A stretch of DNA of 63,530 bases, the filler included, from Sphaeroforma arctica JP610 (Eukaryota): NCBI RefSeq assembly GCF_001186125.1. It is 6 parts of 2 records of this genome, joined end to end, with 100 filler letters (N's around TTAATTAATTAA, not from the genome) between each part and the next. Parts side by side here need not be neighbours in the genome. Positions count along the whole stretch, not along the records: positions 1 to 26,173 come from NW_014040550.1; 5 more parts are not named here. The stretch is one strand, 5' to 3'. Below, piece by piece: positions 488-41,432 of the stretch. The notes beneath the pieces are model-generated. The model was given only the letters and a program-made list of their open reading frames with translations, did no database searches and was not told where the DNA came from. The position numbers and the translations under genes were made by a program. Within the stretch, counting starts at the first letter, position 1; every line of letters begins with the position of its first letter.

Positions 488-757
488 TGTTGTAATACCA
501 GGGCGGACTGAACCAGCCCTCCTGTCCGGGTGCAGGTGCACACCTCAAGTCCGGAAGTCGACGGGTGGTCCACAAGGGTGAATCATCTGATAATAGTCGA
601 TGAACCTATTAGATGAATCATCGTAGCTGTAGTATCGGCATACAATACTTCTCCGTTGAAGTATCGTCTGCAGAAAGTAACTTAATAAACCTTAGTTGAT
701 TAAGAAGTATTGTTTCAGCCAGCTAATACCGGCCAGCTAGTACGATAAAGTTAAACA
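488..757 (+). repeat. Putative 5' LTR of copy 1
   Basis: Starts TGTT(G) and ends AACA. 491-685 aligns with 9672-9874 (roughly 85-90% by eye), and 500-800 aligns more loosely with 9964-10280. The right end is tentative. Confidence 0.6.
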
Positions 758-1913
758 GGCTTTAGATTCAAGCATATACTAAATGGATTTATTATCCTAA
801 CAAACACCCGAAATTTTTGAGATTTCGACTGCGATTACAATCTCCACATCGACGAGTACAGTGGGGACCACCCTGGGTCTACGAAGGCCAGAAGCACTGG
901 ATGCTACTGCCGTGGTTGGACCGTTGGCAGGGTTTTACCCGCTCACCGGCGTATCGGAAGATCGAGCCGAAGGACCATGAGAGCGTACCCCACACCCAAC
1001 TCGACCCCGGGTTTCTCGTCCCAGGTCAACTTACTGCTCACGTACTTAGAGGAACGTTTGGTCCTCGACGTTCAAATGAACATGAATGCTGATATGACAT
1101 TAGTGGAGATAATCCGTTACCTGGTGGCCAACTATGTGATGGCCCCTCAGTTTATCTGTTGACCCGTTACTTCTCCCTTGATTTGATTGCCTACGGACTC
1201 AGTATACATGCTGAAGGCTAAGCAGCATGCCTTGTTGAGCTGTCAAGAGTGTCATCTATCGGCTGGACCAGGGCCTCCGTGTGGTCAAAACCAAGTAACA
1301 CCTATTAATAAAGAGTGTTAAGTCTGAAATAAGTGAACACAGTCAGAAGTGCCATTGCGAATGGCGCGCCTGCTATATTTATTAATCACGAAATAGCAAC
1401 TATTGTATAGTTTATTTGTTATACATTGGATCCTCGAATCTATGTTGTAATAACGCATAGTCCATAAATCTACCCAATTAAATGTGTTAACTATTGATTG
1501 TGATCGCAAGCGATTAAATGCGATCTCATCATTGCAATTAATCGTGCTTGCGAATGTCTTGGTGTGTAGTATGCGGAAGCCATGTAGTTGTTACGCACAT
1601 GACCTCCCCTATTATGTGTGAAAATATGAATGCTGTAGCATGCTTCGTTCCTGAGATATACGTGTTTGTATATATGTTATATGTTGGTTATTACATATTT
1701 ATGTATGTTAACGTTTATATTTTATCGTTGAACTTATATTCTAAAACGAAAACGTATTTTTGAAACGTTTATTTTATTATTTTTAAAAATTCGTGAAAAA
1801 TAAGCCCATTAATAGGCCTCGTTTTATGATATGACTAAAAGCATAAAACGCATGTGACTAAAGTAAAACGTCTATGAAAAATAGCAAAACTGACCACTTC
1901 TTCCCATCAATCT

Positions 1914-2012
1914 TTCCTGAACCACTACAGCGACTATGAGAGCCATACCATATGTTCATACATTGTATCATACATACTTGCCATTTTTGAAATAAATAAT
2001 ATTATCCCTATT
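1914..2012 (+). repeat. 99-bp dispersed direct repeat, copy A
   Basis: 3 mismatches versus 9424-9522. Confidence 0.95.
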
Positions 2013-2371
2013 CGCGTGTTTGCCGCCGAAGGTGCGGATGTCTATCAGTATACTGGGTAACTATTCTAATGTAGGTATACTGTCTTCCTTTCCCTTTTAT
2101 TACAGGTTCGATGAAGCATATAGTTGCCCATGTTATCAAACATCGGCTTGATAAAGCATATAAATGCCCGTGTTAGCAGTCATTGATGGGTATAGGTGGC
2201 CTTTACATGCCGTATCTAAGTAACGCGCCCTTATAAATTAGACGATTATCTTCACGTGTTTAAATAAAGTTGTAAAGTCTTTATGGGTTATTGATTGTGT
2301 GAGAGTGTGATGTGGTGTCCTCATGAGCATACTCGAGAAGGGCACGCTTTTTGTGACTCCGTCACAGTGCC

Positions 2372-2560
2372 TTACATGTTCCGCCTGCCACACCAATAGA
2401 GTTACGCATTTTCCGTCTGCTATGTAATAATGTCTCGACCGTACCGCCGTCAGCGTAACAATGTTGCACATGTTCCGCCTGCTGCGTAATAATGTTGTAC
2501 ACATTCCGTCTTCTACGTAATAATACTACCCATGGTCTCGTTTGGTACGTAATGATGTTA
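2372..2560. repeat. Degenerate ~31-bp minisatellite, ~6 units
   Basis: Units like TTGCACATGTTCCGCCTGCTGCGTAATAATG. Confidence 0.8.
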
Positions 2561-2610
2561 TCCAACTCAACACCACTCACAGCGACTATGCAACACACTT
2601 GAGGTTGCGG

Positions 2611-2903
2611 ATTCCTACCGATTTTCAAGTTTTCGCGCAAAATTCAATGCGGCGTGTCCTCAGGTTTGCTCACCTCTGAGTGAGAGTCAACAGGGTGCTC
2701 GCCTGTACTCTCAGCATCTAAATAAACATACGTTCTATTCTATCGACTGTGATAAGTGCCATACAGCACGCTAGTGAGGCTGCGATTGCTCACCAATTTC
2801 AAAGTGCCTACGCAAAGTTCCATGCGCCGTGCCCTCATGGTTGCTCGCCACTGAGTTAGAGTCAACAGTGTGCTCGCTTTTACTCTAAGCATATAGATAT
2901 ACT
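2611..2903. repeat. Diverged direct duplication, period ~175 bp
   Basis: 2611-2730 matches 2786-2903 (…CTGAGT.AGAGTCAACAG.GTGCTCGC…). Confidence 0.85.
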
Positions 2904-3649
2904 TGCCACCCACAACCAGCACTCGTGTAACTGTAATCTTTGGTCTATCAAGGCGATATTAACGCCTTAGAGTAATTAAACGCTTAGATTAAGTCTAAGT
3001 ATAGTTAAATTCGAAATAAATAAACGAAATGAGTCTTTTAGTAAAGTTATGAATTTAAAGACAATATATGGAGAGTGGATATAAGGTACGTTGTCCACAT
3101 CCGCCCTAGTAACGCGCAGGTAGCCCCGAGACTGGCCCCACGATTGAATATGCTCCAGGCGGCACATAAAGGGATACCGCTGCCGTTGCCTGAGACAGCA
3201 GCCCAGCCGCCCCCAAGGATACCGGAGCGTCCTTCGTCGAGTCCCCGACCCAGGGATTTAAGCCCTTTTCGAGCAAACAACCGTATGCAACCGCGTGGTA
3301 AGGGTGATTTGCGTGGAACCCTTACAAGAGCCTCCTAACATGAGTTCACGAATGCTAAAACCCTAAACTCTAAAATCCTAAGCCTGGGGACAATACGCGC
3401 GATAGTTCATCTCGCAGCCCTTCTCCGGGCCGAGCGGCATGCCCGCGTTGTAATCTTCGACATTGGGGAGACCAGTGTCCGGAATGTGATATCTGTAACC
3501 AGACGGGCATTTTCGATATCAGTGCCCGCAGAACCCACGCAATCTCAGCAATACGTTCAGCGATGGCTCTACCATAACGGTCGCGGCAACGGTTTCACGT
3601 TGACTGGAGGAGGACGAGTGGACCAGTCCTGGTACCCAGGCCAGCTATG

Positions 3650-3960
3650 TGAGGACCTACCAGTCAGTATATACAACAACACCGGTGCTCGTCCAGCTAT
3701 GTTGAGCCGGGGTTTTGCGGCTGCACATCAGTTTGAGATCACAACGATGGAGCAATTGTACCACACAGGGTATGGTGGCAATGGTACAATGGCCCTCATT
3801 TTCTACAAGGAGGCCAAAATTCTGTTGGAAGTGTTGGACATTGAAGGCAGGGCGACCCATCATGAGACATCCTCTATCTGCCTCGTGATTGCCCCATGTG
3901 GTATCCTCCTTGGGCTGGACACCATGCGCCACGAACATCTGGTCACCATGTGGGACGAGT
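3650..3960 (+). pseudogene. Retropepsin-like aspartic protease remnant
   Basis: LPVSIYNNTGARPAMLSRGF...GILLGLDTM. Copy 1 has AAC-ACC-GGT (3678) and copy 2 has GGC-ACC-GGT (12557); each is one substitution from GAC-ACC-GGT, the catalytic DTG. Confidence 0.75.
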
Positions 3961-4239
3961 CGATGTTGCCGCCTACCTTTTGCCTGCAGCTCCCCAAGTT
4001 GTTACAATCAGGTTCATTTCCTGGTATCATACCGCCCCCCGGAAATCCTCTACAATCTATGAATTACCAGCTGCAGCCCATATATAGTTGAGCAGGACGC
4101 TCCGTTTGTGGACTACGATTTCACGGGCCTCGAATATTTAGGGCGTATAACGAACCAACTAGCCGAGTAAGTCCAACGTCTGAAGGACAAGTTCTACATG
4201 GTACGGATGGACCCGAAACATCCGCTGTTTATTCCGGAT

Positions 4240-5215
4240 GTCATGGTGAAGGTAATGCCTCTACCAGACGCAGCTTTCTGTCCGGCAATTTTATGACACG
4301 AGGGACCCTTTTAAAAGTGATGTGATCACCCGGAAAGTGGAGGCTATGTACCAGGTGAGCCATGTGGACGAAGGGGATCCAATGAGTTTGTGGGTCGCTC
4401 CGTGTGTCCTAGCTCGGAAGAACGCCCGCACGGTGCCTACATAGGACATACATTTCCGTCTCACGGTCGACTACTCGATGCACAACCCACACATGCATAT
4501 TCAGCCGGTCACATTGACGACGGAGGACGATGTGCTCTTCGCGAGGTGCGCTCATTCTCACGTGCATTGATTTGGCGGCCTCCTACCATCAACTAATGAT
4601 AGTGCCTGAATGCCGGTATACCCCACGTTTTATACGCCGGAGAGCCGTTTCCACCATTCGGTGTGCTTACTGTGGGGTTTCCAAAATGGCTGCTTTGATA
4701 TGCAGCATTATATGCTGCACACCTTTCGGCAGGTCAAGGCTCTATTTGCCTACTTGGAAAATCTGACAATAGCGGCCAGGCAAATATTGGAGCGTACGTA
4801 TATTGTCGATAGGCCAGCACTGGTCCGACCATCATCAGACGCGCGACATTATGATCGACAGGAACATTCAGCTCCAGCTGTTAAAGAGTCAGATAGCTCG
4901 CTTGACGCAGGAGATTGCTCAACTTTTTGGACGCGACATATTGGACCAAGGGTCCATGATAGACCACGACCGGTTGAAGGATTTCTTAGAGCACCAGTAC
5001 CAAAGAATATGAAGGAACTAGTGTCCCTCCTGACAATGATGTCCTGGTGGTCAGATATGGTGCCCCACTATGCACGCACAATGGAATCCCTTACCCGCTT
5101 GACCAAGAAGAGTGCGGTATTTGAGTGAAGGACCGAACAACAGTTAGCGTGAGAGGAAGCCCTATATTTCTTCTCAATGTGGATTAAGCTTCACCAGCCA
5201 CTTCCGCACCAGCGG
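4240..5215 (+). pseudogene. Ty3/Gypsy-type reverse transcriptase plus connection subdomain
   Basis: IDLAASYHQL, LLWGFQNG, FAYLENLTI (decayed YLDD at 4751), QLFGRDILDQG, PVPKNMKELVSLL..WWSDMVPHYARTMESLTRLTKKSAVFE*..QQLA*EEAL. Confidence 0.85.
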
Positions 5216-5910
5216 TGTATGCCCTCTTTGTTCAAATGGACGGGGGTATCCCGCGTTATGTCGTCGAAGAGATCAACTGTGCATCGCTCTCACAACTGGC
5301 TTTGAAAGCAGCGATGACCCGCACCTTCGACCAACCGGATCTGATCATAGAACTGGAGGCCCTGGCCTTACAGTTCTCCACAGAGGCCATCCGACCGAAG
5401 GACGCCGACGAGGAAGGTTCGGGGGACCCAGCCTCACGCTTTATGGCACTCCACCACACGGGCATCCAGCCAACGGGCAGCGCGAACATCGATTATGTCA
5501 TTGCCATCGGGCGCAAGAATGGCATCCAAGGTTTCGCGGTTGTACTAAATGAAATCATTGATGTCGGCATTACTATTGCCGGCCACTCAAATCTTTTTCC
5601 TGTAATTATCGCGGCCAGTACTTTGAACTCGGCACAGCGCAACTATAGCGCCACGGGCCGTGGAATGATCGGATGCAAATTTGCGGCAAAGAAGGCCCTA
5701 AGCATCCTACCGCGGTCGTATCGTCCAGTGATTATGTACACCGATCACAAACCTTTGTTGGATATCATATAGAACCCTGGTAAGTATACCAAGGATGATA
5801 CCATGGAGAGTCGCCGAATCTTGAGGTCCATCCAGGTTATGCATGAAGTTGAAATTGATTATCAATACGTTCTGGGGCCGCTGAATTTCTTTGGTGACTA
5901 CATGTCGCGC
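5215..5910 (+). pseudogene. Gypsy-type RNase H with a ~120-aa internal insertion
   Basis: ASTLNSAQRNYSATGRGM...VIMYTDHKPL...EIDYQYVLGPLNFFGDYMSR matches the Ty3/Gypsy RNase H consensus (RNYS..EKE, YTDH.PL, G..N..AD.LSR). Confidence 0.85.
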
Positions 5911-6033
5911 TGTTGCGACCATATGCACCCACTTATGTTGCCCGCAGAACGGCGGGTAGCATGGACGGACGTTCTCGAGTTGCCGGAGCCCCAAGTCATG
6001 GCGACGCTCATCACAGCCGTGCTTGACCGTACC

Positions 6034-6330
6034 AACTGGCAACTCAACCGGTTGTGGTACAGGAGGTCTATTGAGGTCTTCGGCGAGGAATACGTTATTG
6101 AGCTCTTCGCCACCGACACATCTATTACAGCAATAAGCCAGAAGGTGGCACATATGGGTGCAATTTCTTCGACGTTGACTTCAACGACAAACACTGCTAT
6201 GACGATTCCCGTTTTGAAATACTGGATGATGTTTTACACCATATCACGACCTTTCGCAATGCCTCTGTGGTTTTGTGTGTCCCGTTCTGGGATACGGCCC
6301 CATGGCCTCCTCCCCTGTTTGGGATGCTAG
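6034..6330 (+). pseudogene. DIRS-type DNA N6-adenine methyltransferase (Dam-like) domain remnant, copy 1
   Basis: NWQLNRLWYRRSIEVFGEEYVIELFA, frameshift near 6120, then YYSNKPEGGTYGCNFFDVDFNDKHCYDDSRFEILDDVLHHI...VLCVPFWDTAPW. Matches the DIRS MT pattern W.L...G...IDLFA...Y.S...D.F...Y.NPPF..I..VL...L.VP.W...W. Confidence 0.7.
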
Positions 6331-8039
6331 AACGTGCGGTGGGCTTACCACCTTGTAAGGTCACGCTCCTGGCACACGTCAAGAGCTGCGGAGGTGTTAA
6401 CTATCCGGTGCCCCGCTCTTTTTGACACCAACTGGGCCGTACTCGGGCCCAGGCGTCTCTCTGGCATGTGGGCCACCAATATCGATCTGTCTCGTATTTT
6501 TCGGTGACCACACGCGCTAGACAAACAGCCGACGCACAGGTGGACAATGTTAGCCCAGTGCAACTTGAGTTGTGGTGGGGCTGGCGGACGCCACACAGGC
6601 GGAGACCAGTGAGTTGCCCGCTGCAACGAGCGACGAGACAGTCACAATCGTCGCTACAATAGCCATACCCGTTGACGCGACCATCGAGCCAACCGAGCCA
6701 CATCTGGTGTTAGAGTACAATGTAGTAGACTTTAAATAAAGTACAAATGTATGTATTTATTTCTGTCCTCACCTTTGGTTTTATACCTAAGGTGTTTGTG
6801 CTAGTGTTTAGCCGCTTGGGCTGGCCAGGGTAAAACCTCATATGGTCAGTATGACAAACCTTATGCGGAACACTTTAACACTTCGATGCTTTTCTATTTC
6901 AACTTCTCTGCAACTAAATCTCACGTTGATCACATGATGCCTTTCCGCATAGGTTGCGACTCACATAGAACCACAGCTATTATTAATATGTTGTGGTTGA
7001 CAGGCTTAATCCACTCTCGGGATTCGGCTGAGAAACTAAATCTGCTATCGGAAGTCGGTTAAGTAATAGCTCAACTCTTGAGAGTAATTTGAGCAACTTG
7101 ATTCACTCTCGGGAGTGAGCTATCTCTGATGACTTAGCTCTCGGGAGTGAGCTAATTCGGATGACTTCCATAAATCAAAGATGGTTTCTTGCTGTAAAAT
7201 CTGGCCTGAGACCTGTAGTCTCTCATCTGGCAACACCTGAACAGGTGGGTGAGGCAAAACCTCTCCCCTTGCAACAGGAAGCTGTACCTATTATCGGAGA
7301 TAATGATACCCCACGGGCCCCGGTTCTAATACTCGGCATGGACGCAAGTCAAGAAAGTGGCCTGGCATCGGAAATGTGGACCTTGGATGAAGTCTCCTTT
7401 ATGAACGCAGAACAACACCCAGCCCTTGACATGCAGGAGCTCTTATCCGGTATGGACATCTTACCGTTGGCCAAACCTGCTTCTCCGGACAATCCTTCTT
7501 CCGCTCGAAGGTGACCGTTTTCCCTTTATCTCACACGTATGCAACAACCCGGGCTGGATAAAACGCCAATTAAGGACACCACCGGACTGGACCCTCCGGC
7601 CTCCCATACATATCTGGACCCTGAGCGATACACTTTGGATTTCTATGATGAAATCTTGACGTACGAGTCTGAATTGTTACGCACCGTGGAGGACCTGGCT
7701 CCTTTCTCAGCCTCGTTGGAATTCCAGGAGATACATTGGGTACTGGCGATTTGATGTACCAGGCTGGCCTTGATGAGGACCCAATTGGTACGACTTCAGA
7801 CACTAACAATGTCCTTTTCGACAAAACGGACGACACCGCGCAACCACCCGTTGACTACTTGGTCTCACACCACCCATCAACCGACACACCAATACCGCGA
7901 CGCCGTACCAAGACTCCGGTACCGATGCCACACATCCTCCACGCCTGCCCAATGGACCTTCCACATGTCCACGCAGCCCTTGCAGCTTTAGAACTGGTCT
8001 CCATTCATGGGGTGGTCTCGTCGCCACGAAGCTTGGAGG

Positions 8040-8965
8040 CTATTTGGACGTTACACGACTGATTCGGCCACCATTTAGCTGATCGGATGCGCCCACTACT
8101 GCAGCAGAAATGTAATTGAAACATCCCAGTAGCGCTGCTTAGGGATATCCTTGGTACGTGTCGCGAGTGGATCCGCACGGGCCGACAGGGTGGGCGCAAG
8201 AAGGGCCTCCTCTAGCAGCCTGCTAGGCCTACGACGATCGGGGAGGAGGTAAACATAGATTATTTATCGGTGAATCCGGATCCAAAAACTCTAAACCGAG
8301 GGGCCATGTCCGGACGTATAATATGGACAAAGATAGTCCGATGTGAAGTGATGAATTTGCTAAGTATGCGTCCGACAACAACGCGCGTGTGAATTACGTT
8401 ACAACGGGCGAGTACGCTGGTAATTGGAGGATTGAGGTTTTCCTCCGAATGCTTACCTATTGGCTCAAACGCAGCTTGTCGGTTGGCCTCCATCACGCGT
8501 GGCGCCCATGAAGTGCCGGCGTTCTTCACGAATTGCAACGCGACATGGTCCGGCGTCATCGATACGGCGCCCTATACATTGTTTACGGGACGGGTGTACC
8601 CCCATTCCTCGGACCCAGAGATATCGGCGATCCTCGACGGCGATGCTGCCGCTTCTGGCTATGAAGCGACGGATACACCTCCAACTCTGGAGCGGGACCT
8701 CGTAGCCCTGGCAAAGGTCGAACGGGCTAAAGCTGCCCAGAAGAGAGCAGCGGATATTCGTCGTATTGACTGCCCGATGGCTGGTATTGGCCGCCAGGTA
8801 TTTAATATACATCTATGGCGGACCTCCTACACAATTTCGCGAAGGATTGGTTGAGGCCCGCAGTCGTATTGGCCCATGTGGCTCCAGTAATGCGGTATAT
8901 TAAGGATACGGCAAGTAATAAGGAGTACCGCGTACACGTGAAGAATATCAAAGCGTACGTACCTC
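8040..8965 (+). pseudogene. DDE integrase remnant (HHCC Zn finger, core, GPY/F-like C-terminus)
   Basis: LHD*FGH...DILGTCREW (HHCC with the last C decayed), KKGLL*QP..EEVNIDYL (first catalytic D), FAKDWLRPAVV...YRVHVKNIKAY. Confidence 0.8.
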
Positions 8966-9026
8966 CAGTCGGTAGCGACGAGATGGTGTCCAAGGGAACA
9001 GCGGCCAACTCGATTTATGCTACTTC

Positions 9027-9385
9027 TTGTTTCACGATTCTATCTACGCCCCATTGATCTCCGACGACCAACGCCAGGCGTTGAGCATTGCATTCCGCAC
9101 TTATGCGGCCGCCATCCGTTTCCAATATGGCCTTAATGGTGCCTATGTCAAGTGGGCACGACTGTGTACAAAGTATAAACGTCCACGATCCAGCGATTTT
9201 ACGGCTGAGGATGAAATGTTCTTCCGTAAACACGCGGCTGAAGTCACGAATCCAGCGAGTACCCTGAGCGCGATTAAGCGCTGTTTTTGTTTCGCCGAGG
9301 ATGCAAGCTACCGCGATGAGCTCCTGTTAACATGAGAACTCAAGCACAACTCAACAATGCTGTTGGATGCGCTTCCCACTTCATG
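9027..9385 (+). pseudogene. Extra ORF between integrase and 3' LTR; resembles a tyrosine-recombinase N-terminal (SAM-like, core-binding) domain
   Basis: AYVKWARLCTKYKRP..FTAEDEMFF...ASTLSAIKRCF resembles Y..W..(W)C....P......F......LSAI of DIRS/Crypton YR N-termini. No catalytic R-H-R-Y region is present. Confidence 0.35.
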
Positions 9386-9423
9386 AGTACGGTTCTATCC
9401 CTTTCTAATTTTTGAGACTATTA

Positions 9424-9522
9424 TTCCTGAACCACTACAGCGACTATGAGAGCCATACCATATGTTCATACATTGTATCATAAATACTTGCCAATTTTGA
9501 AATAAATAGTATTATCCCTATT
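9424..9522 (+). repeat. 99-bp dispersed direct repeat, copy B
   Basis: 3 mismatches versus 1914-2012. Confidence 0.95.
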
Positions 9523-9671
9523 ATTCCGACTTTTCTATGTCCCTGCAAAAAAAAATCGCTGACTCACAGCGGTTCGGGCACTCACGGAGTAAAATGTCCG
9601 GGCCAGCGATTCTCCGCCGCTTTTCAAATTTTGGGGTCAACATTCATCATAATCGCGAGTCTCCCCGGGGC

Positions 9672-9874
9672 TGTAGTACAAGGGTGGACAGAACCAGCCC
9701 TCCTGCCCGGGTGCAGATGCACAGCCCTGCCCTCAAGTCCAGAAGTCGACGGGTGGTTCATATGGGTGAACCATCTGATAATAGTCGATGAACCTACTAG
9801 ATGGATCATCGTAGTCATAGTATCGGCAGTACAATGCTTCTCCCTTGAAGTATCGTCTGCAGAAAGTAACTTTA
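9672..9874 (+). repeat. Putative truncated 3' LTR of copy 1
   Basis: Begins TGTAGTAC after a short G-run (weak PPT). Direct repeat of 491-685. Confidence 0.55.
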
Positions 9875-10280
9875 ATGCCATAAATAGATGGCTGTCTAAA
9901 TATACATTTTTATTTACACAAAGCGAAGGCAATGAAGTATTAATATGTAAATATAGGAATACTAGGGTGGACAGAACCGGCTCTCTGGCCGAGTGCAGGT
10001 GCATGCCCTTACCCTCCGGCCCAGAAGTCTGATCATGGCCCGCATTGGTGAACCATCCGATAACCACGCCTGGGAAACTACTTAGCTGAACGAACGTGGT
10101 TCTAGTAGTAGCAGTACGGTACTTATTCACTGCAGTATCGTCTGCATAAATAAAAACCGTTAGTTGAATAGAAGTTTTGTATCATCTGCCCTACCAGCTA
10201 ATACAATTGAGTTTGACAGGCGTGAGATTAAAATATGCACAAGGGGTATATATTTATTGAATCGATTTGAACGAACTACG

Positions 10281-11102
10281 AATAAAATGTCAACCGCGAC
10301 GAGTAGAGGCGACATATGGGGCCCACCCTGGGTCTAAGAAGGCCAGAAGCATAGCGTGTTGCTGCCGTGGATTGACCGTTGGTAAGGTTTTGCTCACCCG
10401 CCGGCCTATCGAAAAATTGAACCCAAGGGTCACACCGAGAGTGATTACCTAGCACCTAATACGACTTCAGGTTCTCTGCCCAAGTCTTTTTATTGCATAC
10501 CTATTCGGTGGAGCGCTTGGTCCTGGAGGTTTACATAAACATGAATGCGGGCGTGACAGTTGTGGATATTTTTTTGCTATCTCGTGGCCAACTATGGCCC
10601 TTCGGTGTATCGTCTAACTCGGCCCTTCTCCCCTGATTTGATCGCCTACGCTACACAGCTATTTTTATACTTTGAAAGCAAAGCATGCCTAATAAAATGT
10701 CAACCGCGACGAGTAGAGGCGACATATGGGGCCCACCCTGGGTCTAAGAAGGCCAGAAGCATAGCGTGTTGCTGCCGTGGATTGACCGTTGGTAAGGTTT
10801 TACTCACCCGCCGGCCTATCGAAAAATTGAACCCAAGGGCCACACCGAGAGTGATTACCTAGCACCCAATACGACTTCAGGTTCTCTGCCCAAGTCTATT
10901 TACTGCATACCTATTCGGTGGAGCGCTTGGTCCTGGAGGTTTACATGAACATGAATGCGGGCGTAACAGTTGTGGATATTTTTTTTTGCTATCTCGTGGC
11001 CAACTATGGCCCTTCCGTGTATTGTCTAACTCGGCCCTTCTCCCCTGATTTGATCGCCTACGCTACACAGCAATTTTTATACTTTGAAAGCAAAGCATGC
11101 CT
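10281..11102 (+). repeat. Near-identical ~410-bp tandem duplication in the gag N-terminus of copy 2
   Basis: Units 10281-10690 and 10691-11102 both start AATAAAATGTCAACCGCG and end AAGCATGCCT. Confidence 0.95.
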
Positions 11103-14100
11103 TCCTGAGTGAGACCTCAAAGTTGACTGTCAAGTGTGTACCGTTTGCACCAGGACGCTCAAGCCGTGCCACACCGACCCCAGTTTGTACCACGGATGAG
11201 TCTGTTCCAGGCGGCTTCAAGGGCTGTGCCCGCGCCGACGCCGATGATAACTGCCCAACCGCCTCCAAGGAAGCCATTGTCAGACTGTACTCTGTCTAGC
11301 CCACGCCCACGAGACTTGAGCACCTTTCGTGCTGGGAACCACACGAACCGTCCCACAACTACGCATGGGAGGGGCGACTTGTGTGACACCCTCACGCGTG
11401 ACACGTACCACAAATTTACGGCAGTCGAAATAGTCCGATGAATTGAACGATGCTCCGATGCCCCGGCCGACAATCGCCCAATAGAAGGCCCTATCACTAG
11501 AATTGACAAGTGGGTGTTGGTCACTTCGGCAACCCACGATGTTCACGAGGATTTCCGATGGAGCAGATTGCGAGGTTACTGAGAGCCGATGAATAATCGC
11601 TACGCCTCATTTAAACATCTCTACCACTCATAATGTTACGTACCGGTGACTGAGTTACACACTACGGTGTCGGCAGCGGATAAGCGACCGATGAACAACG
11701 CAAGCCGTGTCCGTCAGGAGGAACAACGTAAACTTGACGAATATGAGCGCTCCCGTGCAACACGCATCCAGGATACACAGATGCAAGGGATGGAGAGGAA
11801 GATGGCGAGATTACAAGACCTCAGCCACCGGCTCACCGTTTCTGGGCTAACAACTATCTGTGGGGGCATACAAATGCATACGAACAAACAGGCTGCGATT
11901 ATGACGATGATGTTCCTCAGCGTTAAAAAGACCCCTGCGGTAAAACAGCCATTGATCAAAGGTCCAAAGACCTCAAGAAGTTGACGAAAAATCTGACCGA
12001 TTCAATGGTATCAGTCCGTACATTTACTAATAATGCGTCTACGGGTGTAGATAAAAAAAATATGTCAAACCTTTACAGAACTAACGGAATAACCTCCACA
12101 AGAGCCCTAGTGCCTTGCGGCGTTCAAGAAAAAAAGAAAACGGGGATCATAACCCCTATACTACCGCCATTAATCGTTCGCGATATTCACGTTCCACTTG
12201 TGCCCCTATGGGGCTCTTCTCAGCCACGCGGTTCAACACCGCTAAGCGACAACACTAGAGACCACGCTTCCCACAGCCGCTGCCGCCGCTGTATAGGTCG
12301 ACCAGCTGCGTGCCTGCGTTGTGGCCTCCGTCATTGGAATGACATGTGCCCCGTATGCGACATCTGTCACCACACCAGATAGAACATTTTAGATACCGGA
12401 ACATACCCTCTTTATCCACGCAACCCAAACAATACCCTCAGCACTGGCTCTACAACAGTGGGGGCTGAGACGAATTCGGATTGATTTGAGGAGGACGAGT
12501 GGACCGATCCAGTTACTCAGGCCCCCTGCGAGGACCTACCAGTGATTATATAAAATGGCACCGGTACTCGTCCAGCGATGTTGAGCTGAGGATTTGCTGC
12601 GGCGAATCAGTTTAAGATAACACACTGGAGCGCTTATACCTAACTGGGCATAGGGGCAGCGGAACCTATATCAGGTTAATTTCTTCATTTGCCGACCACC
12701 GGAGGTCTCTTATAATCTTGATATCAGACACAGGAGCCCATACATTGCAGACCAGGACAATACCTGGACCGTATCACTAATCAGCCGGCCGCGAAGGTTG
12801 AACGCCTGAAGGACAAGTTCTTTAAGGTTTGGATAAGTCCGGCCCCACCAAAGTTCATTTCGGATGTCATGTTTAAGGTCATGCCGCTGCCAGGGGCCCT
12901 CTCTATCCGGCGTGTATACGGCACAACGGATCCTTTTCAGAGCGGAGTTTTCACCCGGAAGGTGGATGCCATGTACCGGGTGAGCAATGCGGAGGAAAGG
13001 AACCCCACGAGTCTGTCAGTCGCTTCCTGTGGCCTCGCCCGTAAAAACACCAGAGCAGTGCCGACTGAGGATAAGAATTTCTGCTTGACGGTCGATTATT
13101 CTATGCATAACCCTTACATGCATAACCTGCCGGTGACGCTGCCTACGGAGGACGACACGCTGAACCATGCACGAGGTGCGCATATCCTTACATGTATAAA
13201 TTTGGCCGCCTTCTATCACTAGCTAATGATAGCACCGAAGTGTCGATATATCCTCACGTTCTATACCCCGTGATGGTTGTTTTTACCAGCCCGTTTGCTG
13301 GAAAGCATACAAGACGGCTGTTTCGATATACAGCAATACAAGCTGCACACGTTCCAACCAACATGTTAAAGCCGTCCGACCATCATCGAACAGTAGACAT
13401 TATGATTGAAAAGAATATCCAGCTGCAGCCAACAAAGAGTAAAAAGGTTCGTCTACCACAGGGGATGGCACATCTGTTCGGTCAGGATATTTTAGATCAC
13501 GAGTCCAGGACCGCGACCGACTGAAAGATTTCTCACCGCGCCAGTTCCCAAGAATCGGAAGGAACTGGTATCTCTCCTCGCCATGATGTCTTAGCTGTCC
13601 GGCATGGTGCACAGCCCCATTATGCGTGCACAATTGAACCACTCACCCGCCTCACGAAGAAAAGAGCGGTTTTCGCTTGGGGAACTGAGCAGCAGCTGGC
13701 TTGGGATAAAGCCTTCTTCCATCTGTCGATGAGGATGAAGCTGTACCAGCCGCTCCCGCACCAGTGACTCGTCATATAAAACAGCCGTGGGCATGACCCT
13801 GTATGTCCAAATGGAGAGAAGGATTTCTGTAGACTTCGAAAGGTATTACTAGGTTTCAAACTATGTTAAATAAACTAAGATACAATTCAAATCAGTTAGG
13901 ATATAGCAGTGGTAGCTTGTGTAAGAATGATCGGGACTGCCTCTTGGTACGAGCCTTGAAATCTTCGAACACACAGGACGTACCTCTAGCTGTTCTTTAT
14001 TAGTTTTCACTAGAAGTACTAAGTATCCATGATCACACGCCTAAGTTGTAGATAGACATAAGAACATATGTCACGTTGATACATTAGCTATTATAAATAA

Positions 14101-14271
14101 AGTTCTATCTGGAGAAAAGTTAAAAAAAGAAAAAGACTTATTGGATTTTGGAGATTGGCGGGAGGACCAAAATCTGTAAGTAGTAGTTCAGAGATTATCG
14201 AAATTCAGTTTATAAAATTCTACATCTACTAATGTCTCAAATAGATCCAAGTGAATGAGTCATGTATATAT

Positions 14272-14353
<82 letters not shown>

Positions 14354-15280
14354 TATTATACATACACACACACACANNNNNNNNNNNNNNNNNNNNCATA
14401 TATATAAATTTATGATCAAGTGTGTATATATGTGCTTGTGTGTTTTAAAATACTCAGGCTATTGGAGCCATCAAAGTGAATTTAGAACATTTTGGAAATA
14501 TTGGAAAAGAACTTGTATTGAAATATTTTAATACAAATAAAATCTTGATTTTTAGACTGACCGGAGGCCGTATTCTTTCACTTCTTGCTATGCAGCGGAA
14601 GAAATAGACAACGCACCGCTCTCACAGTTGGCATTGGAAGCCGCGAAATTGCATATCTTCGACCAGACAGACCTCATAATGGGCCTGAAAGCGCTGGCAC
14701 CGCAATTCTCCGCCGAGGCAATACAACCAACGGATGCCGACGAAGTGGGCTCAGGGGTCCCCGCCCCACGCTTTATGACACTCCATCACACGGGGACGTA
14801 GCCACAGGGTACAGCAAACATGGACGATATCATCGTCGTCCGGCACAACGACGGTACCCAGGGCTATGCGGTCATTCGAAAGGAGATCATCGACGTCGAC
14901 ATCACCATCACGGGTCACTCAAAGCTCTTTTCAGTTGTTCTCGCAGCCAGTACTCTGAAATCGGCGCAGCAAAACTATGGCGCTACGGGCCGCGATATGA
15001 CGGGGTGTAAATTTGCAGCCAAGTAGGCTTTGAATATCCTGCAGCGGTTGCATCTCCGTACTGGATATCATGAAGAACCTCGGCAAAAACACCGAGGACA
15101 ATACAATGGAAAGTCGCCGAATCCTCCGGTCTATCCAGGTCATGCATGAGTTACAAATTGGCTACCAGTATATCCCAGGGCCTCTAAACATCTTCGTTGA
15201 CCACATGTCGCGGTGCTGCAACCATATGAACCCACTCGTGCTCCCAGCGAACAAGCGTCAGGTCCTGGCGGCACTCATCA

Positions 15281-15510
15281 TTGCAACTAAACCGTCTGTG
15301 GTTACATCGATCCATTGAGGTTTTTGGAGCCGAGTACGCAATTGAGATATTCGTCAGAGAGGAGAAAAATCTACAGGCGGTCTATTGCAGTAACGAACGG
15401 GGGGGGGGGGAGTGAAATATGGCTGTGGCTTCTTCGATCTTGAACTAGACGACAAACATTGCTATGGGAACTCTCCTTTTGATATATTGGCTGGTGTATT
15501 GTTGGAATGA
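15281..15510 (+). pseudogene. Dam-like methyltransferase domain remnant, copy 2
   Basis: LQLNRLWLHRSIEVFGAEYAIEIFVREEKNLQAVYCSN, poly-G frameshift, then KYGCGFFDLELDDKHCYGNSPFDILAGVL. YGNSPF at 15463-15480 sits at the NPPF motif-IV position. Confidence 0.7.
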
Positions 15511-18500
15511 TAGCGGCCCGCCAAATCGTGACCACAAATGAGGTGGACATATCTCTCATGAGAGGGAATCGGGCGGTTGGCTAACCGCCTTGGAAGTATA
15601 CGCTCCTGGCACACGTCAAGAGTGGAGCAGGCATGAAATTATCCCGTGCCCCGATCTTTCTGGCGCCAACTGAACCGTAGCGGTGCTCCGACCGCCCGAT
15701 GGCATGTTGGCCACCAATACCGATCGGCTTCGTGCTTCTCGATCACGACGCGCGCTCAGAAGGTTGTCGATGCACACCTGGGCAGTGCCGAGGGCGATTC
15801 GCCTGTTGTGGTTCAAACTTGATAAGACAATGGTCTCTGCACACCGAACTGGTTGAACAACCAACCCTCGATATACAGGAGCTCCCAGCGGAGGTCAACT
15901 CTCTGCCGGACAGGGATGTCAGCCGGGTGCGTATACGTGATCTTTTTTTGACCAAAGTTTACTCCAACAATCGGTTGCCCTCGATTCAAGTTCTTTTATT
16001 AGTGGCGTGAATCAGTACTCATTACGAATCGGGGTGGATGAACCCAGCTTTCAATTTGCTTTCCACAACGCACGTACGGAAACAGTGCGTGTTTAATATG
16101 CTGACATACGAGAAGACATCAACCTGCAGTTAGTATTCCTACCGCAAGCACCCTGAATAGTGTCTTTTTGGTTTGAGTGAAGATGGGGGGCATTATAGGT
16201 CATAATTAGGTAGTGCTTTTGTTCTTCTGCATGTAATCGTAGTATTGTTGGTATGTTTACCGTTCTATTCTGAGCCACTCTAAAAAATGTAGTTTACTAT
16301 GTCTGCGATGAGACATTGCTCGTCGATTTTACGCTATCTATAGTACTTAAAATACAAAATTACTGTCGCAGTACAAACCACATTTAGAACACTATCAGCA
16401 GGCGCTTCCGATCAATTTCGGTTGTAGAGTTTTTTTCGCTCGATATTGCAATATGCAACATTGCCAGTGTAGAAACGGACGGTATCTGAACGGACATCAC
16501 TTTTAACAAGAAGTATAACTGTCCCTTCCTGCAATTACAAACGTTAAAGTAGGGGTCAACAATTGTGAGACTGATGGTCATCGTCTAGTGTAGATGTATT
16601 TACATTCACGGCAAGTCTGTGCTGTATATAAACCGACATGTTCTAATTAATTTTGAACGTGTAATACCCAATCTTTATTGTTTCTATTGTCCTGAAGGTT
16701 GACATTAGATATAAATTGAGATAGCTTTCGTATAGAGTATACAGAGTACCTGGAAAGATATGACCAAAGGAAACAATAGACCTCATCTCAAGTACGTTTA
16801 TCTCAGCAGAAAAGACTTGTATTTTTGAATTCACTTGACTTAAAATTTCTACTTGAGTGTTTCTCTCATACGCGGGGTACCGGTATCCTTTACCGCTATA
16901 TTTCTGGTGACTCTAATTTCAGGAACATTGGATCCTGTCCCAAAACTCAGTCTTTGATGATTTTGTGGCTTTGGGTTTGAATTGTCTTTTCTAATAATCC
17001 AGTCCCTAAGACTGTACTGCCGAGTCTAATTCATACCTACATATTGACGGAGAAATCGTGTAAACACATATCGGTATGATGAGTCGGACCAGAGTGTCAG
17101 GTTTTGTGTCCAATGCGGACTGTAATTCGTAGCAAATCTATGTCTGCGCATTGCGTGTACACGTGCTTGGCGTTACTTCCACTCACTAACGGTCACCTAT
17201 GGAATTGAATGAAGTCGCTGGATGCTTTAATTGCCATTTCCTCCTACAACAACGTGAGCGCTCTACAAGTCGACGCTAGTTGTCGGGCACCTAACAGGAA
17301 GTGGTATGCGCTGAAAATACCGTTCTCGATCACAAACACCGAATCTCACTAGTCAACCAGCTACCTATTAGCAAGAAAAGTCATGTATCCAGCTAAAGTT
17401 GAATTCAGCTATCTTTTTAACGTGTACGCTACTATGTACAGAGAAGCATGCTGTATGTCGGGGACGGACTGTAGCCCCTGAAGGTACTCATATTTGGTAT
17501 CAGTTCTCATGACAAATGAAACAACAAAGAGTCATTTTTTGTATAACACGCCCTAGAAACCTTGCAACTATGGTAAACCTTCGAAGTATTGAAGAGAACA
17601 ATCACGAGAATCCCTAGATAAACTTCTTGAGAGAGTTGAATGATGATGCATTCTGCTCCAATACAGGTGTAGCAGCTAAGCAGTGCATAGCAGCTAACGG
17701 TAATAATCGTACGTTGTTAACAATGGAAGCCGAGCAATATGTGTACAGCTGCTGTTGCAAGAGCTATATATGTTGCTCCAATACCAAAAGCGTGCAAGGA
17801 TACTACTTGATAATGAATGAGATGTGGAATCACTGAAATATCTGCAGGCGAAATAAGTAAGTTGAGAACGGGTGGTCGTTAACTGATCAAGGAATGGTGA
17901 GACCGAATGACCACCAGTAAATACAGATATGGAAAGTAAACAACCTGCGCTGATAGATGTAACAGCGTTGGGAATAAGTATGACGGTATATCATGGTTAT
18001 TCATAGCCTGCATGTCATGCTACAAAAGATCAAAAACTGACTATAAATAAAACAGGCATCAGAATTCTGAACTATCATACTTTGACCCTTTAACTTTCAG
18101 CCATTAAAGCCCAATCAAACCCACTTTGGCCGAGCGTCTTTAATTACCCATGGCAGTCACATGTGAGTTATATACCCCTATTCTCCACATGTATCCACAA
18201 AATGCTTGCTAAAACGAAATGAACAAAGAACCATACGACCGACAAATTCCAACTCATAGCTACAGTAGCAGATTGGGCAATTGAGTCAATTCTAACCTTC
18301 GGCTTTTACCGAACAATGATGCAAGAGGCTATACGAAGCATTGTCACCAAGATGCCTGTAGGTTCTTACTCAAAATATGGTGGACATCTCACAGGTAGCA
18401 TAGCAATTGGTAATACAAATGTAGAGCGAACAGTCGATTTAGATTTCGTATTCAACGTCCCGTTGGACAGTATTTTAGATCATGCTCTCACTCTAGTAGC

Positions 18501-19020: not shown

Positions 19021-25246
<6,226 letters not shown>

Positions 25247-25700: not shown

Positions 25701-28700
25701 ATGGCTCGAGAGTCCATAGCTATGACTGAAGTCTCAGAGTCCTCAACGCGTCAGTATGCTCGCTTGTCAACTGCCGATGTTGATCATGGGTACGTATGTT
25801 TTTCTTTTAGCGCATGTATTTGTATTAGGCTGTGAGATGGATATGCTAGTGTGTGTTTCTATGTATACATATAAAATCATGATAGTTTGTGTACGTGTGA
25901 GTTGATAGGCATTACCGATCATTCTCGACTTGTACTTTACTTTTACGCTTGGTTTACCAATATGCAGCTGAGTGCATTGTTTTTGCGAACATCGAGGATT
26001 CTGTGAGTTCACAGATCTACTTGATCTTTGTGTCTATCTCCAACCCGGTCTCCTTGCATTTGTCTACAATATCCGATGGCAATTTAGACTAGAAGTTGCA
26101 AGTTCTCGGAGATAGTCCGTTGTAACTTCATTCGATTTCGGATACCGAGATAGCTTCTTTGACAATATATATANNNNNNNNNNNNNNNNNNNNNNNNNNN
26201 NNNNNNNNNNNNNNNNNTTAATTAATTAANNNNNNNNNNNNNNNNNNNNNNNNNNNNNNNNNNNNNNNNNNNNTATACATACTTATTATATATATAATTT
26301 TATATACACACATATATATATATATATTGATATATATATATATCAGTACTTTCCATACTGTCTTATTGCGGGCTTTGTTTGATATAGTGGAAAGAGTTGA
26401 CACTTGCATATGTGTCATTATATAGGAGTATTTATATGTATATCATTCCTGCACTATATCCTATATTGCGGTAAGTAGAAAATCTGACCTCACATGCCCA
26501 CACGTACGCTCGCACAATTTTACATACACGCACACGAACACACATACTAGCACACACAGATGCTATCACAAACCACACGGATATATGCGGACACACACCT
26601 CAAAGTTTATAAGCTAAGTCTGTCGTTATGTCGACTTTCATTCCGGCACATCAATGTGTATTTCTGTATTTGGGCAATTGCAAATCTTTATTGATGATTT
26701 GTAGCAATATTTTCTCCGACTGTGGCAAATGGTCCCTGAGTGTAGGGCCTACATCGCTTGTTTACCCGAAGGTTTACTCACACCCTTGTTTCTATGAGTT
26801 TGTGACTGATTCTGTCTTTCATCATTGCTTTAATTTCTTGTTGATAATATCTGCTCAATACTCGCAATTTTCTTCGGTTGTGCCAAATAGCCCATTACTA
26901 TCAGCCATGCCTGATGTCATTCGATGTCTTCCGTTTCATAAACATATGCATGCTTTGTGCAGTTGTGTATAGAGTCACACAATCAATACAACTCCGTCGT
27001 CAATTAAGCCGTCGATATCTTTTGTTGATACCACTAGCACTCCCTGCATAGATACGGAGGAGAGCACAACCACAGGGGATCACGCACCTCCTAACGGCGC
27101 TGAGATTGACGATCCTATGACGATGGAAGATGTGCACCATGGCGCCGGTCAAATACAGGTAGTCGATTTCATTCAGTAATATTGAGACTAGGGCAACTTG
27201 CTGTGGTTGCGTCATAATACCCGTCGAAAGTTTACAGTGCTCATCGATTAGCGCGAGTGATGTCAAAGATTTAATACATGCTTTCAATGCAGATAAAGTC
27301 TCCGGCATATTCTTTAATAAATTCAGCTTAGGTATTGTTTCTGAGCGTCTGTGTTGCTGGAGAAGATTGGCAAACGAATATCTGCAACCGCGAGAAAATT
27401 TAATCACTGATCTCCAAAGCATGTTTGCCACATTCCAAGTTGAGAGAATCACTGCACATCTGCTCGTATGGTGATACCAGACTACGACAGGGCTTTTCAA
27501 ATGGGCCCTCGTTGACAGTGTGGGACATTGAAAATTGTCCAATTGCCGAGTTTCGCATCCCACATGGGCACTTCATATTTCATTGCTCGACCACGCATAT
27601 AAATCTGCGCAGATCTATGTTACATCTATGTCGAGTACCGAGCCAACGAATCGATTCGACACATGCAAGGTTTCTGGGCAAGCATCAAGTTGTCTCTTTT
27701 CCTCACGGATGCGCCCGTATCAACTACAACAGAACAGGAACGCTTTTGATTCTATATGCAGGCGTTGCTGATCCCAGTGTCCATTTGCATGATGCTGGTG
27801 GTGATAACAGTCAGGTCGATAACATACTTTGCCACCAATCCCGAGAAGCAGTACATTGCTTATGCGAGTATATTCAAGGAAGACGACGGACAGACCAACT
27901 ATCAGAATGCAATGAGGTATGTTATATATATTTTTTGCTATGCACGGATGCGGGATTAAGGAGAGGGTTGATTGTATTTATGAAAATTCTTATTTTGCGT
28001 GTGTGATGAGGTGAACGTGCCGATTGCAGCCGATGGCGCGTGCAATAGATAGGGGTGAATATAACTTTGCTGTAAAATTAGACGATGCAAATAGGTCGTG
28101 TTGTGTGTTTGAGCAAGTTAGGGTGTACAAGTAAAATTATTGTGGACGGGACGTGGTCGGGACGGGTGATGGGTAGTCGTAATCGTGCGGGCGTTTGCTG
28201 GTCTCTTCACTCTGTATGCTACACAATCTAGCACAAGTGTAGTACCCTGAACATGCCACGTAGTGGTTATCTCCGATGTTGTCTGTTGAGCCTATAAGGG
28301 CTACAGCGGATGTTTGGATATAGCCATCCACTACGGGATTTGTTCGGATTCACCACAGTCTAAGCGCAATGGGTGGCAGTTACTTAAGCCCTTGCAGGTT
28401 GCTGGTTGAGATAGCCTCCGGACATGTATATCCACCGCGACAGGAAGTTATAGTCTAGTTATGTAGTTATCTACTGCAAATTATGGAGCCGATAATGTAT
28501 TAACGGAGAGGCAGAAAAGGATGTCATGTACTATACACGGTACGATGAATAAAGCATTACATGGCATTTATATGGAGGTGCACTGTAGTGTTTGCGCTAG
28601 AGAAATGTTCATGCAGCAAGCTACAGGGAGTAGTCGATAAATCGGTTGTAACTTTAGTTTTGAGCTATAAATTTGGTACTCTTTGCAAATATATCTACGC

Positions 28701-34700: not shown

Positions 34701-35143
34701 TCCAGAGCCTTTGCCTGTTATCACTCTATTATGTCAAACAGGACTTTGATCCATACTCTGAATGTAAACACACAATCTAGCATGTCAGTCAATTTGAACA
34801 CACTCTCACTTACGTTGCCAGGGTCTCTGCTAAACATTGCCTTCCCCGCTGAATGTTGGTTGCACGCCATATTGGGATATAGAATGCTCATCTGATTGTA
34901 GCAATTATCTATAATACATATATCCTGGTATACACCCAAACCAGCATATATCTCACATTTCACGCACTCTCACTCGTACATACCCAGGGTCTCTGCATAA
35001 CATTGTTTATTCTGCTGATTGTTGGGAAGGCTCTGCCGGCGTTGCCTATCTCCATTGGTCTCGGATTGTTCTTCTACTGCACGACGGATCTGATGATTGT
35101 TCCTATGTTGGATGCACTGGGCCAGTCAGGACTCAGAACATAA
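25701..35143 (+). CDS. PSEN: Presenilin (gamma-secretase catalytic subunit, GxGD aspartyl protease), multi-exon
   Basis: GT-AG exons: 27052-27158, 27762-27916, 28763-28858, 29437-29556, 30165-30363 ([16 protein letters not shown]), 31224-31380 ([11 protein letters not shown]), 31881-32024, 32926-33070 ([13 protein letters not shown]), 33812-33884, 34988-35143 ([10 protein letters not shown]). The first exon 25701-~25790 is tentative because its phase is unresolved and a gap lies downstream. Confidence 0.93.
26174..26273. other. Artificial 100-nt scaffold spacer N44-TTAATTAATTAA-N44 (also at ~42978, 48782, 53030, 58862)
   Basis: Identical six-frame-stop linker in the middle of fixed-length N runs. 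Confidence 0.95.

Positions 35144-35993: not shown

Positions 35994-41432
<5,439 letters not shown>

What the first reader, a model, noticed from the sequence alone, without database searches (positions are those of the whole stretch)
488..15930. Ty3/Gypsy-type LTR retrotransposon family carrying a DIRS-type DNA adenine methyltransferase between RNase H and a DDE integrase
Seen: in both diverged copies, the RNase H end (..DYMSR/DHMSR) is followed by the same domain (6034-6330; 15281-15510): WQLNRLW..FG.EY.IE(L/I)F, Y(Y/C)SN, FFD..DKHCY(GNSPF/DDSRF)..IL..VL, plus VPFW...W in copy 1. Frameshifts hide it in the ORF track. Established: a Dam-like MT domain (IDLFA...NPPF...P.W...W) directly after RNase H is the hallmark of DIRS1-group tyrosine-recombinase retroelements, which lack protease and DDE integrase. 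Here it lies in an element with protease, Gypsy-type RT/RH, HHCC-DDE-GPY/F integrase and TG..CA-type direct LTRs. Presence at the same position in both copies argues it is a family feature, not a chance nested insertion. Inference: the element may have methylated adenines in its own cDNA or target site, or used the domain as a nucleic-acid binder. I cannot confirm novelty without a search.
Basis: partly seen in the sequence, partly recalled or inferred. Interest (0 to 1): 0.88.

Follow-up and report, generated by a model that had tools for sequence, protein, structure and literature searches.

The report
Dead Gypsy retrotransposons carrying adenine methyltransferase
Two broken copies of a Gypsy-type jumping gene in the protist Sphaeroforma arctica carry a phage-like adenine methyltransferase domain that likely helped new copies acquire an active-chromatin mark, an arrangement already reported for this species in a 2026 preprint.

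Summary
The host is Sphaeroforma arctica: presenilin exons match SARC_00303. Two ~70%-identical decayed Ty3/Gypsy copies carry the same domain right after RNase H. A profile of its C-terminal part, searched against 1.84 billion proteins, found two more S. arctica copies and one Pfam-Dam protein (E=2.8e-4). Profile comparison gave 96%. The domain shows the same third-codon bias as RT and RNase H. RT matches Ty3. The integrase, present only in copy 1, has exact D-35-E spacing but only a weak profile score. A third copy links RH, MT and IN. bioRxiv 10.64898/2026.05.21.726589 already describes an ichthyosporean DAM-LTR lineage that includes S. arctica, with raised 6mA and expression but no activity in E. 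coli. This scan also noted such elements in other genomes. One difference: motif IV reads N-S-P-F/W (or D-S-R-F), never NPP, in 4 of 4 S. arctica copies that cover it. Fold predictions were inconclusive. Verdict: known kind, low novelty; catalytic activity untested.

The parts
491..711 (+). Copy 1 left LTR-like repeat, begins TG
   Evidence: 87% identical to 9672-9872 over 201 bp; K2P 0.10 over 193 columns; shared GAAGTATT at 704 and 9934
766..1232 (+). Probable gag N-terminal remnant, copy 1 (inferred from position; no profile hit)
   Evidence: 68-72% nt identity to copy 2 10281-11102; no Pfam or PHROG hit
1233..3130 (.). Stretch without counterpart in copy 2, lower GC; probable insertion(s)
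   Evidence: No blastn match to copy 2 11050-12330 except 3138-3219; GC 0.26-0.47; holds a 99-bp repeat also at 9424-9522
3433..3530 (+). Cys/His knuckle-like gag end (read by eye)
   Evidence: Frame translation; homologous to 12304-12400
3642..3950 (+). Aspartic protease remnant; active-site Asp reads Asn (NTGA at 3678)
   Evidence: Aligns from the DTGA column of a Gypsy Pol profile; 2 of 300 shuffles reach the score; no PDB or NCBIfam hit
4183..5160 (+). Reverse transcriptase, copy 1, frameshifted; YLEN at 4751 in place of Y-x-D-D
   Evidence: Gypsy Pol profile hit 4976-5158 E=7.7e-5; 67% aa identity to copy 2
5188..5910 (+). RNase H, copy 1, with a ~100-aa insert (about 5257-5590)
   Evidence: Pfam RT_RNaseH E=2.3e-5, 24.9 bits vs cut-off 24.8; Gypsy Pol profile 5590-5997 E=1.7e-5
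6037..6383 (+). Dam-like N6-adenine methyltransferase domain, copy 1; frame change near 6110, motif IV D-S-R-F, internal deletion of ~18 codons
   Evidence: tblastn of Pfam-Dam protein P0022: best hit in the window 6117-6329, E=1e-7, 32% over 71 aa; hhalign 96%; alignment
6402..6536 (+). Conserved ~45-aa tail after the methyltransferase domain
   Evidence: 64% aa identity to copy 2, 23 of 41 differences at third positions, p=0.002; also in SARC_00943 and SARC_00905
8054..8970 (+). DDE integrase remnant, copy 1 only: H-x4-H 8054, C-x2-W 8159, first Asp 8258, D 8326-x35-E 8434, GPY/F-like end (last read by eye)
   Evidence: Spacing and X-read-through score vs a Gypsy integrase profile: E=0.001, 0 of 500 shuffles for core plus C-terminus; core alone 17 of 500; no Pfam or PDB hit; 71% identity to SARC_03267
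8976..9335 (+). 119-aa open frame after the integrase; no chromodomain hit
   Evidence: Pfam and PHROG scans gave only weak unrelated hits
9672..9943 (+). Copy 1 right LTR-like repeat, preceded by GGGGC; clear homology ends at 9872; candidate target duplication TATGT at 9944-9948
   Evidence: the duplication is suggestive only
9951..11102 (+). Copy 2 LTR-like start and gag remnant with a 410-bp tandem duplication (97%)
12304..13764 (+). Copy 2 knuckle, protease and reverse transcriptase remnants
   Evidence: RT matches Ty3 Gag-Pol 7q5b (E=4e-7) and Ty3 RT 4ol8 (E=1.4e-6), the only 2 PDB hits at E<=10
14570..15216 (+). Copy 2 RNase H remnant, after an interruption at ~13830-14560 that includes an assembly gap
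   Evidence: 68% aa identity to copy 1
15284..15620 (+). Dam-like domain, copy 2; motif IV N-S-P-F; the PFW segment is deleted
15640..15930 (+). Copy 2 conserved tail and linker; no integrase follows
   Evidence: 15640-15816 matches 6402-6569; 15856-15884 matches 7414-7442
27756..35134 (+). Host presenilin exons, used to identify the host (not part of the element)
   Evidence: 88-100% identical to S. arctica SARC_00303 per exon match, the mismatches falling at exon edges; 61-88% to Creolimax CFRG4448

Best explanation
These are two dead copies of a Sphaeroforma arctica Ty3/Gypsy LTR retrotransposon family whose Pol carries a DIRS-type Dam-like adenine methyltransferase domain between RNase H and integrase, likely a member of the ichthyosporean DAM-LTR lineage described in 2026, and the domain likely put 6mA on the element's own reverse-transcription products. 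Shown here: domain order PR-RT-RH-MT-IN, homology of the domain to Pfam Dam, purifying selection on it while the family was active, and at least five family copies in the species. Inferred: the domain came from a DIRS-like element together with its position behind RNase H; it was packaged with Pol; it methylated adenines on cDNA or the RNA-DNA intermediate; host AMT1 then kept 6mA on the new insertion so that it stayed transcribed (the preprint's model). I put the identity at about 0.9, membership of the published lineage at about 0.8, and the catalytic mechanism at about 0.5.
For: Host identity. A profile lacking the N-terminal 40 residues retrieved P0022 at E=2.8e-4, which is Pfam Dam PF05869 at E=3.4e-9, 37 bits vs cut-off 28.1, phrog_111 DNA methyltransferase and weakly TIGR01712. 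The unused N-terminus of copy 1 then matched P0022 independently, 2 of 2000 shuffles. Atlas neighbours of the S. arctica copy SARC_00943 include Dam clusters by features (0.90) and by model (TM 0.55). Motif-IV-to-PxW spacing is 81 nt, within the 78-87 nt of most DIRS1 rows in PMC3266345 supplement 2. Third-position bias equals that of RT and RH. SARC_03267 joins RH, the MT C-terminus and IN in one model on another contig. The preprint names S. arctica DAM-LTRs without chromodomain, enriched in 6mA and more expressed. The catalytic first residue (N/D) and the aromatic fourth residue of motif IV are kept in 4 of 4 copies; the first proline acts through its main-chain carbonyl and is replaced in active KsgA/Erm enzymes (PMC3814359 passages).
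Against: No window fragment or S. arctica gene model hits Pfam Dam directly. The copy 2 N-terminus did not match P0022 beyond chance (211 of 2000 shuffles). Motif IV is never N-P-P, whereas the preprint calls that triplet nearly universal. The preprint's E. coli expression of eukaryotic DAMs gave no 6mA. Its 6mA enrichment is a correlation. No intact copy was seen, and the preprint's main text does not give the domain's position for the ichthyosporean lineage. The integrase profile score is weak.
Confidence: 0.6

Rival explanations
1. The domain is a catalytically weak or dead methyltransferase fold, kept as a nucleic-acid or SAM-binding module of Pol (for example in cDNA protection, packaging or integration targeting); 6mA on these elements comes from host AMT1 alone.
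For: Fixed Pro-to-Ser change in motif IV in 4 of 4 copies; negative heterologous assay in the preprint; many DIRS1 domains read xFPP, with no catalytic Asn/Asp, yet persist.
Against: The catalytic N/D and the stacking aromatic are kept in 4 of 4 copies; replacement of the first proline is compatible with activity in KsgA/Erm.
Confidence: 0.3
2. This is a separate, more divergent capture or subfamily that the preprint's Pfam-based screen missed, not the lineage it reports.
For: 0 of 3 S. arctica gene models of this family reach Pfam Dam at E<=10, while the screen needed E<=1e-5; the NSP motif is not mentioned in the main text.
Against: Same species, no chromodomain, conventional Gypsy order; the gene models are broken copies, so failing Pfam says little about intact ones; the preprint screened raw ORFs.
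Confidence: 0.15
3. The arrangement is a chimera: a DIRS fragment, or a separate integrase, nested in an unrelated element.
For: Copy 1 has long interruptions (1233-3130, about 6570-7410) and copy 2 has no integrase.
Against: Same RH-MT junction in both window copies and SARC_00943, and RH-MT-IN in SARC_03267 at equal divergence, 74% RH and 71% IN; RT is Ty3-like; no HS-x-R recombinase motif in any of six frames of 481-16000.
Confidence: 0.03
4. The post-RNase-H segment is not a methyltransferase, and the resemblance is chance.
For: No direct Pfam, PHROG, NCBIfam or PDB hit for the window fragments.
Against: Database-wide E=2.8e-4 link to a Pfam-Dam protein, ordered motif match along the whole domain, and independent N-terminal support.
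Confidence: 0.03

Closest known systems
Ichthyosporean DAM-LTR lineage (Fernandez-Moreno et al., bioRxiv 10.64898/2026.05.21.726589; Pirum gemmata, Abeoforma whisleri, Sphaeroforma arctica)
   Same: Same species; Ty3/Gypsy organisation; Dam-like domain in an LTR element; no chromodomain.
   Different: Motif IV here is N-S-P-F/W rather than N-P-P; these copies are dead; the main text does not state the domain's position for this lineage, and sequence identity to the published families could not be tested.
Chloro-Ochrophyta DAM-LTR clade (same preprint)
   Same: DAM domain lies between RT and integrase.
   Different: Algal hosts; treated by the authors as an independent capture.
DIRS1-like tyrosine-recombinase retrotransposons (PMC3266345)
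   Same: RT-RH-MT order; motif IV followed about 26-27 residues later by P-x-W.
   Different: DIRS1 has a tyrosine recombinase, inverted terminal repeats and internal complementary regions; this element has a protease remnant, a D-35-E integrase and direct repeats.
Phage N6-adenine methyltransferases (Pfam Dam PF05869, TIGR01712, phrog_111)
   Same: Homologous core, reached through P0022.
   Different: Free-standing enzymes with N-P-P-Y/F; here fused inside Pol.
KnitGypsy-Dnmt3 (PMC5890265)
   Same: A DNA methyltransferase under purifying selection inside a Gypsy Pol.
   Different: Cytosine-C5 enzyme, structurally unrelated to Dam.

Membership tests
Ty3/Gypsy LTR retrotransposons | RT of Ty3/Gypsy type | tested here: met
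   Only PDB hits are Ty3 Gag-Pol and Ty3 RT, E=4e-7 and 1.4e-6; no RT tree against DIRS references was built
Ty3/Gypsy LTR retrotransposons | Pol order PR-RT-RH-IN | tested here: met
   Pieces fall in that order on a Gypsy Pol profile; PR and IN scores are weak (2 of 300; 0 of 500 shuffles)
Ty3/Gypsy LTR retrotransposons | DDE integrase with HHCC and D-35-E | tested here: met
   H-x4-H, C-x2-W (CGEC in SARC_03267), D 8326-35-E 8434; copy 1 only; no library hit
Ty3/Gypsy LTR retrotransposons | Direct LTRs with TG...CA ends and a target-site duplication | tested here: inconclusive
   TG starts and 87% identity over 201 bp; CA end not seen; TATGT duplication has about 16% chance probability
DAM-LTR retrotransposons | Dam-like (PF05869-type) domain encoded within an LTR element | tested here: met
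   By transitive homology through P0022; no direct Pfam hit on these broken copies
DAM-LTR retrotransposons | Asn-Pro-Pro catalytic triplet (typical, 'almost all' in the preprint) | tested here: not met
   NSPF, NSPF, NSPW, DSRF: 0 of 4 copies that cover the motif. This is a typical rather than strict feature; it is why membership of the published lineage is called likely, not shown
DAM-LTR retrotransposons | Five-stranded methyltransferase core | tested here: inconclusive
   Models had mean pLDDT 51.5 and 39.6; fold searches gave nothing above background; Atlas model TM 0.55 to a Dam cluster, under that tool's naming bar
Ichthyosporean DAM-LTR lineage | Ichthyosporean host and no chromodomain | tested here: met
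   S. arctica; no chromodomain hit after the integrase
Ichthyosporean DAM-LTR lineage | Groups with the published clade in DAM and RT trees | not testable with these tools
Ichthyosporean DAM-LTR lineage | Raised 6mA and expression of insertions | not testable with these tools
   No methylation or expression data were obtained for this window
DIRS1-like elements | Tyrosine recombinase | tested here: not met
   No HS[TLVIF]R motif in six frames of 481-16000 (motif search only); a DDE integrase is present instead
DIRS1-like elements | Inverted terminal repeats and internal complementary regions | tested here: not met
   Terminal repeats are direct; the longest inverted pair in 400-11200 is 23 nt at 78%

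The most novel reading that the evidence does not exclude
The S. arctica family carries a fixed N-S-P-aromatic variant of the Dam catalytic motif, kept under purifying selection across subfamilies about 30% identical. It is an active enzyme with a changed pocket, like the first-proline replacement in KsgA/Erm, that marks the element's RNA or RNA-DNA hybrid rather than double-stranded DNA. It is a capture that Pfam-based screens, including the 2026 one, missed.
Probability: 0.1. Interest if true: 0.55.

Novelty: already known. Interest (0 to 1): 0.22.

Why it matters
If the model holds, a retrotransposon writes its own 6mA to enter the host's active-chromatin state, the reverse of the usual silencing story. 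That idea and its presence in this species are already in a preprint, so this window adds confirmation and three details: the domain's place between RNase H and integrase, codon-level evidence of selection on it, and a Pro-to-Ser variant of the catalytic motif that an assay should take into account. What DIRS and DAM-LTR methyltransferases act on remains open, and these dead copies cannot settle it.

Tried and rejected
No whole genome is held for this window, so copies could not be counted genome-wide. Direct scans of the domain fragments against Pfam, PHROGs, NCBIfam and PDB gave nothing. A word-based homologue search with 6114-6422 gave 16 candidates, none scoring. AlphaFold2 on the copy 1 fragment (pLDDT 51.5) and on P0022 (39.6) failed for lack of alignment depth. 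Foldseek on viral models found 0 hits at E<=0.001. VIA-align had best Z 4.0 to proteasome subunits, with a cap adenosine methyltransferase at Z 3.3; this is uninformative either way. Scans for related loci found none in viral contigs or metagenome contigs. None of 127 reference loci, fetched with a Gypsy integrase motif, had a Dam-like hit. MAFFT misplaced non-overlapping fragments in alignments A1, A2, A4 and A7; these were not used for claims. The integrase core alone was not significant against the Gypsy profile (17 of 500 shuffles), nor was the copy 2 protease (38 of 300). ApT and GATC densities were tabulated for element and host DNA without a statistical test, and no inference was drawn. 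No tRNA gene lies in the window, and a primer-binding site could not be established. Expression and read support were not obtained. No RT or MT tree was built: no DIRS RT references were in hand and only five MT sequences.


Full report
Observation. The window's first 16 kb hold two decayed copies of one retroelement, about 70% identical in DNA. The post-RNase-H domain spans 6037-6383 in copy 1 and 15284-15620 in copy 2, each broken by a frame change and by different deletions. Between the copies it is 70% identical in protein over 74 aligned codons, with 13/12/34 differences at codon positions 1/2/3 (p=1e-4). RT shows 29/22/65 over 130 codons and RNase H 37/26/98 over 192. The segments were chosen by local alignment, which favours good matches equally in all domains. 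The domain was therefore under purifying selection as protein while the family was active.

Host. A presenilin exon returned Creolimax fragrantissima CFRG4448 (89%) as top hit and Sphaeroforma arctica SARC_00303 at 100% over 56% of the query, among 17 hits. All four exon matches to SARC_00303 are identical apart from exon edges. The host is S. arctica, an ichthyosporean protist.

Element class. Copy 2 RT matches only Ty3 Gag-Pol (7q5b, E=4e-7) and Ty3 RT (4ol8) in the PDB. RNase H reaches Pfam RT_RNaseH at its cut-off. To test protease and integrase I fetched 127 loci with a recalled Gypsy integrase motif; 126 held the motif in frame, 22 were long enough for an integrase profile and 13 for a Pol profile. 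Single frames of the window did not hit the integrase profile. Read through with X at breaks, the integrase core plus C-terminus scored E=0.001 with 0 of 500 shuffles reaching it; the core alone was not significant (17 of 500). Spacing from D 8326 to E 8434 is exactly 35 codons, after H-x4-H and C-x2-W. The protease remnant aligns from the DTGA column (2 of 300 shuffles). Direct repeats at 491 and 9672 start with TG and differ by K2P 0.10. A CA end is not seen, and a TATGT duplication at 486-490 and 9944-9948 is only suggestive. No recombinase HS-x-R motif was found. The integrase is present only in copy 1. However, SARC_03267, the single hit among 5096 candidates for the RNase H query, lies on another contig and joins RNase H, the domain's C-terminus and the integrase at similar identity to copy 1 (74% and 71%). 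So the integrase belongs to the family.

Identity of the domain. The fragments hit no library directly. A profile of the C-terminal two thirds (A5), run against 1.84 billion representatives, gave 4 hits at E<=0.001: SARC_03267 (in the query, circular), SARC_00943 (1.6e-11), an unnamed JGI protein P0022 (2.8e-4) and SARC_00905 (7.4e-4) (names). P0022 is Pfam Dam above cut-off (E=3.4e-9) and phrog_111 DNA methyltransferase. hhalign of the window's pieces to P0022 gave probability 96%, E=3.9e-9, and tblastn placed P0022's best window hit at 6117-6329 (E=1e-7). The N-terminal part, not in the search profile, matched P0022 in copy 1 (2 of 2000 shuffles) but not significantly in copy 2 (211 of 2000). 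Atlas neighbours of SARC_00943 residues 40-170 include Dam clusters and RT-RH-Dam clusters, all below that tool's naming bar. My own folds failed. The spacing from motif IV to P-x-W is 81 nt, as in most DIRS1 rows of PMC3266345 supplement 2.

Catalytic motif. Four of five known copies cover motif IV: NSPF (copy 2), NSPF (SARC_00943), NSPW (SARC_00905, at the start of its gene model) and DSRF (copy 1). All four have Ser where the consensus (D/N/S)-P-P-(Y/F/W) has the first Pro (PMC7544214 passages). PMC3814359 (passages) states that the first Pro acts through its main-chain carbonyl and is replaced by L/I/V in the active dimethylases KsgA and ErmC'. The change therefore does not prove loss of activity, nor does it show activity.

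Mechanism. Shown: architecture, homology and selection. Inferred: the domain travelled in Pol, likely methylated adenines on cDNA or the RNA-DNA intermediate, and host AMT1 maintained 6mA so that new copies stayed transcribed. This is the preprint's model. Its support is a correlation (more 6mA and expression for DAM-LTRs in S. arctica and A. whisleri), and its E. coli assay was negative. A non-catalytic binding role is the main rival.

Comparison and novelty. bioRxiv 10.64898/2026.05.21.726589 (whole text read; supplements not seen) reports DAM domains in LTR retrotransposons and defines an ichthyosporean lineage in Pirum, Abeoforma and S. arctica, without chromodomain and with conventional Ty3/Gypsy organisation. 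It was the only paper returned, and one of 2; one search returned none. PMC3266345 (passages and one supplement table) and PMC5890265 (passages) cover DIRS methyltransferases; PMC12695648 was seen only as a listing. The NSP variant is not in the preprint's main text, but its supplements may show it. This scan has 12 earlier notes of similar elements in at least 3 other genomes, and none on this DNA. Whether this exact family is the published one could not be tested; I put it at about 0.8. Verdict: real, correctly read, already known; interest 0.22.

Noticed in passing
window 5257-5590 and about 14620-14930: RNase H carries a ~100-aa insert relative to a Gypsy Pol profile (43 profile columns span 144 codons). 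It is conserved in both copies and in SARC_03267 and lies in a segment with strong third-position bias. No PHROG or PDB hit; Pfam DUF7100 only E=0.08.
   Followed up: partly
window 6402-6536 and 15640-15774: A conserved ~45-aa tail follows the methyltransferase core in four copies; it lies where motif I-IV-TRD (gamma-order) enzymes have their target-recognition part (inference).
   Followed up: partly
window 10281-11102: 410-bp tandem duplication at 97% identity in copy 2 gag; recent duplication or assembly artefact.
   Followed up: no
window 1914-2012 and 9424-9522: A 99-bp repeat at 97% identity lies twice inside copy 1, much younger than the element; probably another small mobile repeat.
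   Followed up: no
window 8976-9335: 119-aa open frame after the integrase C-terminus, where chromoviruses have a chromodomain; no family hit.
   Followed up: partly
window 13830-14560: AT-rich interruption with microsatellite and a short N gap splits copy 2 between RT and RNase H.
   Followed up: no
window 27756-35134: Host presenilin gene has at least nine exons by tblastn with the Creolimax protein; the S. arctica model SARC_00303 (189 aa) covers only the middle of it.
   Followed up: partly
window 19909-20373 (-), 39184-39630 (-), 53251-53574 (-): Host exons that look like an ankyrin-repeat protein, an aldo-keto reductase and a DnaJ protein (read by eye, labels recalled).
   Followed up: no
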